A stretch of 64,000 bases of DNA, taken from contig CACMMN010000001.1 of assembly GCA_902614905.1 (NCBI GenBank), positions 32,827 through 96,826 of the forward strand. Reading direction: 5' to 3'. The stretch is from an uncultured Pelagibacteraceae bacterium (lineage in GTDB: Bacteria; Pseudomonadota; Alphaproteobacteria; Pelagibacterales; Pelagibacteraceae). A model generated the notes under the pieces. The model worked only from the letters and a program-made list of their open reading frames with translations, searched no databases and was not told where the DNA came from. Shown here piece after piece: positions 14,191 to 16,806 of this stretch. Position numbers and translations under genes: made by a program. Positions within the stretch are counted from its first letter, which is position 1. Each line of letters begins with the position of its first letter.

Positions 14191-14963
14191 TGAAAAAAGA
14201 TACTTTTAAGATATCTTCAAAAAGGTTTAAGTCAAGATTAATAGTTGGAACAGGAAAATACAAAAACTTTTTAGAATGCTCAAAAGCTGTAAGGGCATCA
14301 GGTGCTGATATAGTTACAGTTGCTGTGAGGAGAGTGAACATATCAGATAAAAAAAAACCTGTGTTAATGGATTATATTGATCCAAAAAAAATAACCTATC
14401 TTCCAAATACAGCAGGTTGTTTTTCTTCAGTTGAAGCTTTAAGAACTCTAAGATTAGCAAGAGAAATTGGAGGCTGGAAATTAGTTAAACTTGAGGTATT
14501 AGGAGATAAAAGAAGCTTGTTACCTGACATGATTGAAACTTTAAAGTCAACAGAGGTATTATCTAAAGAAGGATTTAGAGTTATGGTTTATTGCAATGAT
14601 GATCCATTGATGGCAAAGAGATTAGAAAATGTTGGTGCTGTGGCGATAATGCCTTTAGCTGCACCGATTGGTTCTGGGTTAGGTATACAAAATTATACAA
14701 ATATAAAAATTATAAGAAACCAAACTAAACTTCCGATTATTATTGATGCAGGCATAGGAGAGGCTTCTGATGCTACAATCGCCATGGAGCTTGGATGCGA
14801 TGGTGTATTAGTAAACACAGCAATCGCACAGGCAAAAAAACCACTAGAAATGGCAATTGCCATGAAATATGCAGTTATTGCTGGGAGAAAATCTTACTTA
14901 TCCGGGAGAATAAAGAAAAGCTTAATGGGTTTTGCTTCAACCTCAAAAAAAGGGATTATTTAG
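14190..14963 (+). CDS. thiG: Thiazole synthase
   Basis: [36 protein letters not shown]. Confidence 0.97.
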
Positions 14964-16725
14964 TTTTTCCTCTTTTATAGTGTTTTCTTTTTTTGAAATT
15001 TTTTTTATTAAACTTAATAACATTATTTGTCTTATTTTTGTTATTAGGTATGATTTTTTTAATTTCTATCTTGTGTTCTACTTTTTCCAAAATTTTTTTA
15101 CTTTTGTTCTCAAATGATATTTCATATTCTGGCACTAAAAATATCTTATCTCCTAAGAGATTAATCTTTATCTTATATTTTTTTTCTAAATATTTAAGAT
15201 CCTTATGAAAATTTTCTGATACAAAACTTTTAATTTTTTCTGGCATATTTGCGTTTACTATTTTTGCTTTAGAATTAATTGCCTTAACTTCTATTAATTT
15301 TATTATTTTCTGTGCAAATGATTGATTTGTTAAAGAAATATTCCATTGAATGCTGCTTTCCCTTAATCTTTGTCTAGACATCTCTAATAAACCAAAGTTG
15401 CTGATTCTACCAATTTGAACTCTTGCTCTATCTTTTCTACATCTTTCCTTTAGTTTTCTCTCAACACTCTTTCTATTTCCAAAGTTCATCATATCAATAA
15501 AATCAATTATAATTAGACCAGACAAATCCCTAATTTTAATTTGTCTGGCTATTTCTTCCGCAGCTTCTAAATTTGTATCTAAGGCAGTGCTTTCAACATT
15601 TTTTTGTTTAATTGATTTACCTGAATTTATATCAATAGATACCAATGCCTCAGTAGGATTTATTACTAAATAACCACCTGAATTAAGTTTTACTTGAGTA
15701 TCATAAATTTCATTTAGTTTATCCTCTATTTTCTCTTTAATAAACAGAGGTTGTTTGTCTCTATATTTTTTTATTTTTTTAACACTCTTAGGCATCAAAA
15801 TTTTCATAAAATTTTTTGCTTTTTGATAACCTTCATTACCTTCAATTATTATATTTTTAGTTTCATCATCATAAATATCTCTTAGGGTACGTTTTATTAT
15901 ATCACTTTCTTGGTGTACTAATGATGGAGCTATAGAATTCATAGCTGTATCTTTAATTTTATTCCAACTATCTATCAAACTAGATAAGTCATGTTCAATA
16001 TCATTTTTTGTTTTATTTGAACCTGCTGTTCTTACAATTAAGCCCATTTCTTTTGGTATGTTAATTTCATTTAGTATAGATCTAATTTTTTTTCTCTCCC
16101 CAAAATTAAAAATTTTTCTAGATATTCCACCTCCCTTGGGTGTATTTGGCATTAAAACAATATACTTGCCTGCAATCGATATAAATGTAGTCAGCGCAGC
16201 TCCCTTTAAACCTCTTTCATCCTTAAGGACTTGAACTAATATTACTTGATTAGGTTTTATAACTTCTTGGATTTTATATCTTTTAGATGGAATTTTTGAT
16301 CTATTGTAATCAGTTATATTTTGATTTTCGATTTCTGTTGTTTTTTCTTTATTATTTTCGTTACTTTCATTTGAGGAAGTCTCATTTTCTTTTATTGATA
16401 TATCATCTTCCTCACTTTTCTTAGCTAACTCTTCTCTTAATTTTTCCTCTTCTTTTTTAATAACATCTAAGTCACTTAATGGAATTTGATAATAATCTGA
16501 TTGAATATCATTAAATGATAAAAATCCATGCCTTTCTCGACCAAAGTCTATAAAAGCTGCCTGAAGAGAAGGTTCTACTCTACTAACTTTTCCTAAATAA
16601 ATATTGTTTTTAATTAGGTTATTTTTTACGGTCTCGTACTCGTAATCTTCAATATTGCCATTTTCTTTAAGTACAACTCTTGTCTCATCTGGATGCGATG
16701 CATCGATGTATAAATTCTTTTCCAT
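14956..16725 (-). CDS. rne: Ribonuclease E/G family, compact form
   Basis: [18 protein letters not shown] (S1 domain), [29 protein letters not shown]. Confidence 0.93.
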
Positions 16726-16806
16726 AATATTTTTGTTGATTTAATCATTTTTTTTTAAATTCTGATGCCATAACTTTAACAAATTCATTAATTAAATTAA
16801 ACTAAA

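What the first reader, a model, noticed from the sequence alone, without database searches (positions are those of the whole stretch)
15300..15390. RNase E lacks the Zn-link cysteine motif
Seen: [30 protein letters not shown]. Known: RNase E/G normally has CPxCxGxG here (E. coli SRQRLSPSLGESSHHVCPRCSGTG), which binds Zn between protomers and supports tetramer assembly. The segment is shortened and both Cys are gone. The long degradosome scaffold is also replaced by a short basic tail ([16 protein letters not shown]). Inference: a metal-free oligomer interface in a streamlined oligotroph.
Basis: partly seen in the sequence, partly recalled or inferred. Interest (0 to 1): 0.6.

Follow-up and report, generated by a model that had tools for sequence, protein, structure and literature searches.

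The report
SAR11 RNase E without zinc link
The only RNase E of this SAR11 (Pelagibacter) genome has lost, through an old 11-codon deletion shared by its whole order, the zinc-binding cysteine loop that joins the enzyme's subunits in E. coli, so this very abundant ocean bacterium must assemble its main RNA-cutting enzyme without that zinc.

Summary
Window 14956-16725 (-) encodes a 589-aa RNase E. All catalytic, 5'-sensor and S1 RNA-binding residues are intact. The CPxCxGxG Zn-link is missing: relative to E. coli, exactly residues 404-414 are deleted.

- **Copy number.** It is the only RNase E/G gene in the assembly and in five closed relatives.
- **Spread.** All 46 homologues from the window's order lack CxxC (Pelagibacterales/SAR11; 2 families, 9 genera). 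So did none of 124 other sampled proteobacterial RNase E/G proteins, including alphaproteobacteria with genomes down to 0.5 Mb.
- **Linker.** The shortened linker carries an order-invariant Trp (W461) and Leu (L465) and no conserved metal ligand.
- **Second loss.** A gammaproteobacterial order of 0.9-1.8 Mb genomes lost the motif independently (31/31). It is probably the SAR86 of earlier scan notes. Three of its four families again have a Trp there.
- **Other zinc sites.** The genome keeps the DnaJ, ClpX, PriA, DksA and RecR zinc sites, so this is not a general loss of zinc sites.
- **Tail.** The C-terminal scaffold is a ~38-aa Lys-rich tail. The alphaproteobacterial PNPase-docking GWW motif survives in the sister family but not in this genus.

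Most likely this is an active, metal-independent dimer or tetramer held by a hydrophobic linker. That is inferred, not shown. The scan noted this loss before on other DNA. I found no paper describing it.

The parts
14956..16725 (-). rne: 589-aa RNase E, the sole RNase E/G-family gene of the genome (stop codon TAA at 14956-14958)
   Evidence: Pfam RNase_E_G E 2.9e-95 and TIGR00757 470 bits against a cut-off of 326. One PF10150 hit in the own genome. AF2 model pLDDT 89, best PDB match 2bx2 at E 3e-51.
16282..16485 (-). Acidic, partly helical insertion in the S1 domain (aa 81-148), the alphaproteobacterial type
   Evidence: The query aligns continuously with Caulobacter RNase E 4oxp. The model predicts a helix at 83-116 followed by a disordered stretch. 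In Caulobacter this insert binds RhlB (PMC4245959). Its length varies across the order.
16027..16032 (-). 5'-monophosphate sensor residues R232 and T233 (E. coli R169, T170)
   Evidence: Invariant in 39 order members and in the 144-sequence alignment. Numbering taken from the alignment.
15625..15633 (-). Catalytic D365-I-N367 (E. coli D303, N305)
   Evidence: Invariant; coordinates checked.
15502..15504 (-). Catalytic D408 (E. coli D346)
   Evidence: Invariant.
15328..15363 (-). Shortened large-to-small-domain linker [12 protein letters not shown] (aa 455-466). The junction of the 11-residue deletion lies between L465 and T466 (15328-15333). The W461 codon is 15343-15345.
   Evidence: The gap corresponds to E. 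coli 404-414. W461 and L465 are invariant in the order; W is found at this column in 0 of 114 outgroup representatives. Model pLDDT is 86-88 here.
15073..15327 (-). Small domain (aa 467-551), retained
   Evidence: Pfam RNase_E_G_Thio covers 467-536, matching profile positions 14-83 of 86, so the motif-bearing start of the profile is unmatched. pLDDT about 97 in the deep-alignment model.
14959..15072 (-). Lys-rich, predicted disordered C-terminal tail (aa 552-589) without the GWW motif
   Evidence: In the 45 residues that follow position 95 after the SRQR anchor, 17 are K/R and 3 are D/E; there is no Trp. pLDDT about 50. The sister family ends in KKxGWWxx.

Best explanation
This is the functional, single-copy RNase E of a SAR11 (Pelagibacter) cell. 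One in-frame deletion of 11 codons in the stem lineage of the order Pelagibacterales removed the whole zinc-coordinating loop (E. coli residues 404-414). The large catalytic domain was thereby joined almost directly to the small domain. The enzyme therefore cannot share a Cys4-bound zinc ion between protomers.

It most likely still works as a dimer or tetramer. [quoted passage not shown] I infer that the assembly is held by protein-protein contacts alone. In this reading the remodelled linker, especially the clade-specific invariant W461 and L465, supplies a hydrophobic clasp at the two-fold junction where the zinc used to sit.

Shown:
- the deletion, its age and its spread;
- intact catalytic and sensor residues;
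- sole-copy status;
- absence of alternative ligands;
- strong constraint on W461 and L465;
- an independent second loss, also with a Trp.

Inferred:
- the oligomeric state;
- that the Trp sits in the interface;
- any selective reason for the loss.
For: - **Family and residues.** RNase E/G membership holds, and D303/N305/D346, R169/T170 and F57/F67/K112 equivalents are all invariant.
- **Fold.** The deep-alignment AF2 model has pLDDT 89 and pTM 0.84 and matches E. coli RNase E over about 560 columns. The small domain is confident and the linker has pLDDT 86-88.
- **Copy number.** One PF10150 hit in the own genome (81.6% complete) and in five closed or complete relatives.
- **Spread.** 0 of 46 order members have CxxC. 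It is present in 74 of 74 other alphaproteobacterial homologues, 44 of them from genomes of 1.7 Mb or less, and in 50 of 50 beta/gamma RNase E and G homologues. Of the 150 nearest 50%-identity representatives, 144 have CxxC, 2 are Pelagibacterales-like and lack it, and the other 4 are one single-Cys variant, two that look truncated or frameshifted, and one without the anchor motif.
- **Clade-specific changes.** Against 114 outgroup representatives the only radical fixed differences are W461, L465 and K473, all in or next to the linker.
- **Convergence.** A gammaproteobacterial order lost the motif independently (31/31). The quick tree puts it on the gamma side and SAR11 inside the alpha side, with SH-aLRT 100 for the split and 98 for SAR11. 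Three of the four Zn-less linker types carry a Trp, against 4 of 291 CxxC-bearing linkers in my sample.
- **Literature.** In E. coli, mutating or deleting the motif prevents tetramer formation and lowers activity (PMC2631609). The co-crystal structure shows one RNA contacting both protomers of the principal dimer (PMC6954427).
Against: - No multimer model, coordinates or biochemistry were available. The role of W461 rests only on conservation and recurrence.
- One family of the gamma order manages without any Trp in the linker.
- The Trp in family f252 sits in a different local context (GKTIWVRS). That context also occurs rarely next to an intact CxxC.
- The counted sequences are related, so the real number of independent events is two to four.
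- E. coli RNase E truncated before the Zn-link is monomeric yet dimerises on RNA (PMC6954427), so a stable metal-free interface is not strictly required.
- The global superposition on E. coli protomers is loose (rmsd about 15 A, TM 0.56-0.65). This probably reflects domain orientation in a monomer model.
Confidence: 0.6

Rival explanations
1. The enzyme has no constitutive oligomer interface at the junction. It is a monomer or weak dimer in solution and pairs only when an RNA bridges two protomers. The conserved linker merely fixes the small domain against the large domain.
For: E. coli RNase E 395-delta and 493-delta, which lack or disturb the Zn-link region, elute as monomers, dimerise when RNA is added, and can hetero-oligomerise (PMC6954427). 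One Zn-less gamma family has no Trp. Apart from the linker, no compensating change was found in the large domain.
Against: The small domain mediates dimer and dimer-dimer contacts in E. coli. It is fully retained and confidently folded here. Invariance of a newly gained Trp over an order whose members are only 43-90% identical is more than a passive tether needs.
Confidence: 0.25
2. The loss is a neutral by-product of genome reduction or of general zinc and cysteine sparing in an oligotroph, with nothing replacing the Zn-link.
For: The genomes are small and AT-rich (about 28% GC, 1.0-1.5 Mb). A second small-genome order lost the motif too. Earlier scan notes report several zinc-site losses in SAR86 (e1-5143216); I did not check the other proteins.
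Against: 44 other alphaproteobacterial lineages with 0.5-1.7 Mb genomes keep CxxC. The same genome keeps the four DnaJ CxxCxGxG motifs, the ClpX C4 finger, the PriA zinc ribbon, the DksA C4 finger and a CxxC...CxxC motif in RecR. Proteome Cys is an ordinary 1.06%. The linker is under strong constraint.
Confidence: 0.1
3. Other residues bind a metal at the interface, or this copy is inactive and a canonical rne lies elsewhere in the genome.
For: The assembly is only 81.6% complete.
Against: No Cys, His or acidic residue is conserved in the linker across the order. Closed genomes of the genus and of the sister family have exactly one PF10150 hit. All catalytic residues are invariant.
Confidence: 0.03

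Closest known systems
E. coli RNase E catalytic half (residues 1-529; PDB 2BX2, 2C0B, 2VMK, 2VRT, 5F6C, 6G63)
   Same: Same domain order: RNase H-like, S1, 5' sensor, DNase I-like, then small domain. Same Mg2+ ligands, 5'-sensor residues and S1 RNA-binding residues. About 35% identity in the structural alignment to 2bx2, sequence E 2e-102, fold E 3e-51.
   Different: Residues 404-414 (CPRCSGTGTVR, the zinc-coordinating loop) are deleted. A 68-aa insert sits in the S1 domain. The 530-residue scaffold is replaced by a 38-aa Lys-rich tail. Only 81 bp lie upstream of the start codon and no Rfam family matched the window, so nothing like the E. coli rne 5' leader was found.
Caulobacter crescentus RNase E (alphaproteobacterial type; PDB 4OXP; degradosome with RhlB, PNPase, aconitase, RNase D)
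   Same: Same lineage of RNase E: insertion in the S1 domain and a continuous alignment to 4oxp. The sister family of the window's family still ends in the alpha-specific PNPase-docking GWW motif (PMC3376730).
   Different: Caulobacter keeps a CxxC (CEHC) that matters for BR-body formation and mRNA decay (PMC12510024). It also has a roughly 330-aa disordered C-terminal domain. The window's protein has neither, and no GWW.
E. coli RNase G (489 aa, homodimer, no scaffold)
   Same: Compact size, no long scaffold, same catalytic core.
   Different: All RNase G-type homologues sampled keep CxxC and lack the S1 insert. The NCBIfam RNase E model scores higher than the RNase G model (392 against 281 bits). 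Nearest relatives are long alphaproteobacterial RNase E proteins.
Engineered Zn-link-less E. coli RNase E (C404/C407 mutants, 395-delta truncation)
   Same: No zinc site between the protomers.
   Different: The laboratory variants lose tetramers and most activity, or need RNA to dimerise (PMC2631609, PMC6954427). The natural variant is the sole, conserved enzyme of a whole order and has a remodelled linker.
Zn-link-less RNase E of a small-genome gammaproteobacterial order (probably SAR86; earlier scan notes e1-5054561 and e1-5143216)
   Same: CxxC absent in 31 of 31. The linker is shortened. A Trp lies at a similar distance after SRQR in two families (ERW) and in a third context in one more family.
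   Different: Independent origin on the gamma side of the tree. There are three different linker forms, one without Trp. The C-terminal end motif differs (RAxNDPRNK).

Membership tests
RNase E/G family (Pfam PF10150, TIGR00757) | Catalytic region scoring above the curated cut-offs | tested here: met
   PF10150 319 bits (cut-off 25.5). TIGR00757 470 bits (cut-off 326).
RNase E/G family | DNase I-like active site: Asp303, Asn305, Asp346 (E. coli numbering) | tested here: met
   D365, N367 and D408 are invariant in 39 order members and in 144 sequences.
RNase E/G family | 5'-monophosphate sensor (R169, T170) and S1 RNA-binding residues (F57, F67, K112) | tested here: met
   R232, T233, F58, F68 and K174 are invariant.
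RNase E/G family | CPxCxGxG Zn-link between the large and small domains | tested here: not met
   Deleted, with no Cys or His in the linker. This is a conserved hallmark, not the criterion by which Pfam or NCBIfam define the family. I therefore file the protein as a member that lacks this feature.
RNase E/G family | Small (thioredoxin-like) domain | tested here: met
   PF20833 27.4 bits (cut-off 26.8) over residues 467-536. pLDDT about 97. The model aligns to the E. coli small domain within the full-length match.
RNase E orthologue (as opposed to RNase G) | NCBIfam equivalog score | tested here: not met
   NF008074 scores 392 bits against a cut-off of 908. RNase G NF008689 scores 281 against 594. 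The RNase E cut-off presupposes the long C-terminal half.
RNase E orthologue (alphaproteobacterial type) | Insertion in the S1 domain, nearest relatives being alpha RNase E, and a C-terminal GWW PNPase dock | tested here: inconclusive
   The S1 insert is present and the nearest relatives are CPHC-type alpha RNase E proteins. GWW is present in 14 of 14 members of the sister family but absent from this genus.
RNA degradosome scaffold | Long disordered C-terminal region with partner-binding microdomains | tested here: not met
   Only 38 Lys-rich residues follow the small domain. PNPase is encoded in the genome, but no dock is recognisable.
Oligomeric RNase E (dimer of dimers) | Homodimer or tetramer in solution | not testable with these tools
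   Only monomer prediction was available.

The most novel reading that the evidence does not exclude
Two unrelated, very abundant streamlined ocean heterotroph lineages independently deleted the RNase E zinc link and replaced it with a tryptophan-based, metal-free clasp. One is SAR11. The other is a gammaproteobacterial order, probably SAR86. In this reading the change is adaptive: it makes assembly of the central RNA-decay enzyme independent of zinc supply and insensitive to the oxidants and copper that attack a CxxC site.
Probability: 0.25. Interest if true: 0.7.

Novelty: new variant of a known kind. Interest (0 to 1): 0.55.

Why it matters
The Zn-link is described in the RNase E literature as a conserved feature that organises quaternary structure and the active site. 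[quoted passage not shown] Here a whole order, including cultured Pelagibacter strains and probably the most numerous heterotrophs in the sea, runs on a single RNase E without it. This is a natural experiment on whether, and how, RNase E can assemble without metal. It points to two specific residues to mutate. Together with the independent gammaproteobacterial case, it makes a link between trace-metal or redox ecology and RNA-decay machinery directly testable. It also shows a stepwise reduction of the alphaproteobacterial degradosome: scaffold lost first, then the GWW PNPase dock.

Tried and rejected
- **Shallow AF2 model.** AF2 with the 39-sequence order-only alignment gave a poor model (pLDDT 60, linker below 50) and was discarded.
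- **Deep AF2 model.** The deep-alignment model is good, but it is a monomer and gives no coordinates. It cannot locate W461 relative to a partner.
- **Motif scan misfires.** The first regex-anchored scan mis-anchored or missed five outgroup proteins (L060, L076, L083, L098, L113). Inspection showed all five have CxxC.
- **Unresolved gamma genomes.** Loci L287 and L289 had no anchor, and G619, G674 and G685 were never fetched, so all five are unresolved.
- **Phylum draw.** A draw of 160 genomes did not happen to contain any Zn-less lineage. The gamma case appeared only after a 300-genome class draw and a targeted look at small genomes.
- **Rfam.** No family matched anywhere in the window.
- **Literature.** Searches for Pelagibacter or SAR11 with RNase E, and for homologues lacking the zinc link, found no description of this loss.
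- **Pseudogene or second copy.** Rejected.
- **Horizontal transfer between the two Zn-less groups.** Rejected (a quick tree; the careful search was not finished).
- **General purge of zinc sites in this genome.** Rejected.

Full report
**1. What is there**

The window is AT-rich (22-35% GC). Window 14956-16725 (-) is an intact 589-aa ORF.
- It lies between thiG, which is convergent and overlaps it by 8 nt, and a class A penicillin-binding protein gene, which is divergent with an 81-bp spacer.
- It scores far above the curated cut-offs for the RNase E/G family: PF10150 at 319 bits and TIGR00757 at 470 bits. It also has a marginal small-domain match (PF20833, residues 467-536).
- It aligns to E. 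coli RNase E structures at E about 2e-102, and to the Caulobacter S1/5'-sensor fragment 4oxp over residues 1-275.
- The quoted peptide is residues 450-479, window 15289-15378.
- Closest named relatives are Pelagibacteraceae single-cell genomes, Ca. Pelagibacter ubique HIMB4 (71% identity) and Ca. P. communis. The organism is therefore a SAR11 bacterium.

**2. The Zn-link is deleted and everything else is kept**

Using the numbering, the functional residues are all invariant in 39 order members and in a 144-sequence alignment that includes 114 outgroup representatives.
- Mg2+ ligands: D365, N367, D408 (E. coli D303, N305, D346).
- 5' sensor: R232, T233 (E. coli R169, T170).
- S1 residues: F58, F68, K174 (E. 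coli F57, F67, K112).

Between SRQRL and the first helix of the small domain, the query has 12 residues where relatives have 23-24. A local alignment places an 11-residue gap on E. coli 404-414. That span is the zinc pocket 404-407 plus most of the zinc-coordinating region 401-414 defined in PMC2631609. The protein has a single Cys (C429), and it is not conserved outside the genus.

**3. Structure model**

The deep-alignment AF2 model is confident, with pLDDT 89 and pTM 0.84.
- The linker has pLDDT 86-88 and the small domain about 97.
- Part of the S1 insert and the last ~35 residues are disordered.
- Its best PDB matches are E. coli RNase E chains over about 560 columns.
- The high global rmsd (about 15 A) probably reflects domain orientation in a monomer model. 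I draw no conclusion from it.

**4. Sole copy**

PF10150 hits once in the own assembly, which is 81.6% complete. It also hits once in each closed or complete relative examined, in three genera of both families.

**5. How far the loss extends**

- The GTDB order holds two families and nine genera in the sample. Every complete genome has the gene (103 of 103).
- All 46 homologues I read lack CxxC.
- Outside the order, CxxC is present in 74 of 74 alphaproteobacterial homologues. These are the 30 best-scoring of a 300-genome, 176-family draw plus 44 lineages with genomes of 0.5-1.7 Mb. The nearest outgroup (47% identity) has it too.
- CxxC is also present in 50 of 50 beta/gamma RNase E and RNase G homologues.
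- Among the 150 best 50%-identity cluster representatives out of 1.84 billion proteins, 144 have CxxC. The only two intact Cys-less ones are Pelagibacterales-like. One further representative has a single Cys (SPYC).
- The simplest history is one deletion in the stem of the order. A quick maximum-likelihood tree recovers the order as one clade inside the alpha side (SH-aLRT 98).

Unpublished genomes: one of the 74 alpha loci (L075) comes from genome G378, which is flagged as unpublished; without it the count is 73 of 73. Unpublished genomes G134, G886, G648, G739 and G896 enter only the search tallies.

**6. What replaced it**

- In the order alignment the linker holds two invariant residues, W461 and L465, and two nearly invariant ones, R455 and S457. 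Mean column identity across the alignment is 56%.
- I compared 30 order members with 114 outgroup representatives. Only ten positions are fixed differently. Seven are conservative swaps. The three radical ones are W461, L465 and K473, all in or next to the linker. No outgroup sequence has Trp at the 461 column.
- No Cys, His or acidic residue is conserved there.

**7. An independent second loss**

Earlier scan notes said that SAR86 RNase E lost the Zn-link. I tested this without names.
- In a 300-genome draw of the class of a gammaproteobacterial genome, the 150 best matches all span about 10 more residues than the query. That is consistent with an intact loop.
- Among 30 small-genome gamma loci, two lacked CxxC. 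Both belong to one order of four families with 0.9-1.8 Mb genomes.
- In that order, 31 of 31 homologues read lack CxxC.
- The tree places them on the gamma side (split support 100). The loss is therefore convergent, not transferred.
- The linkers come in three forms. Two families have ...ERWTQD..., one has ...GKTIWVRS..., and one has ...ESYDIEHVLVRG... without Trp.
- Counting linker types, three of four Zn-less types carry a Trp. Among the CxxC-bearing linkers in all my samples, 4 of 291 do. These sequences are related, so this is suggestive and not a statistic.

**8. Why it was lost**

Genome reduction alone does not explain the loss, because other alphaproteobacteria with far smaller genomes keep the motif. 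A general shedding of zinc sites does not explain it either.
- The same genome keeps DnaJ with four CxxCxGxG motifs, the ClpX C4 finger, the PriA zinc ribbon and the DksA C4 finger. RecR keeps a CxxC...CxxC motif.
- Proteome Cys is 1.06%, which is ordinary.

The recurrence in two abundant marine small-genome orders hints at an ecological driver. Candidates are zinc supply, or the oxidant and copper sensitivity of CxxC; PMC12510024 shows copper acting on the Caulobacter motif. This is speculation.

**9. Mechanism**

[quoted passage not shown] Mutating or deleting the motif abolishes tetramers and lowers activity (PMC2631609, PMC6954427).

The SAR11 enzyme keeps the sensor, the active site and the small domain under strict conservation. 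I therefore think it still acts as an oligomer and that the Trp/Leu linker substitutes for the metal (confidence about 0.6 for the whole statement, lower for the Trp clasp itself). The main rival is RNA-assisted pairing of otherwise weakly associating protomers, as seen for E. coli 395-delta.

**10. The tail**

- After the small domain only 38 residues remain. The C-terminal region is strongly basic: in the 45-residue stretch counted, 17 are K/R. The last ~35 residues are predicted disordered.
- All 14 members of the sister family end in KK(S/T)GWW plus two residues. This is the alphaproteobacterial PNPase dock defined in Caulobacter (TAPPEKPRRGWWRR, PMC3376730).
- One genus of the window's family ends in LWVRRKKK.
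- The window's genus and three others have no Trp in the tail.
- PNPase itself is encoded.
- The acidic S1 insert, which docks RhlB in Caulobacter (PMC4245959), is retained.
- The order therefore shows stepwise loss: first the Zn-link and the long scaffold in the stem, later the GWW dock within Pelagibacteraceae.

**11. Novelty**

I found no paper describing a Zn-link-less RNase E in SAR11 or elsewhere.
- One paper notes only that RNase E is short in Rickettsiales and Pelagibacterales (PMC5436854).
- Another states that the CxxC is well conserved across alphaproteobacteria (PMC12510024).
- The scan itself noted the same loss before on other DNA: e1-5458163 and e1-2361597, and for SAR86 e1-5054561 and e1-5143216.

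Verdict: a real, ancient, clade-wide variant of a well-known enzyme, worth biochemical follow-up.

Noticed in passing
L025-L031, L039-L044 (C-terminal ends); window 14959-15072: All 14 RNase E proteins of the sister family end in KK(S/T)GWW plus two residues, the Caulobacter-type PNPase dock. One genus of the window's family ends in LWVRRKKK. The window's genus has instead an aromatic doublet ([FY][FY]; HY in the window) 4-6 residues from the C-end inside a Lys run. This may be a decayed or altered PNPase dock.
   Followed up: partly
L271, L285, L291-L319 (C-terminal ends): RNase E of the Zn-link-less gammaproteobacterial order ends in a conserved RA(S/K/A)NDPR(N/Q/Y)K motif in all four families. 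This looks like a short partner-binding motif. I did not search for it in the literature.
   Followed up: no
window 16726-16806 and the whole window: Only 81 AT-rich bases separate the rne start from the divergent penicillin-binding-protein gene, so there is no room for a long autoregulatory rne leader like that of E. coli. No Rfam family matched anywhere in the 64-kb window.
   Followed up: partly
window 14956-14963: The 3' ends of thiG (+) and rne (-) overlap by 8 nt, so the two stop regions are shared.
   Followed up: no
G113, G167, G145: A few closed genomes of the same genus show rne in pieces with in-frame stops: G113 has 3 stops, G167 has 6, G145 has one TAG. These may be sequencing errors or real decay of an otherwise universal gene.
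   Followed up: no
P0175: One long (1183 aa) representative close to alphaproteobacterial RNase E has SPYCGGTG, with the first Cys of the Zn-link replaced by Ser. This could be an intermediate state.
   Followed up: no
A1, columns about 100-230: The S1-domain insert varies from about 60 to about 140 residues within the order and is D/E/N/K-rich low complexity. Only its first helix (residues 83-116 in the window's protein) is conserved.
   Followed up: no
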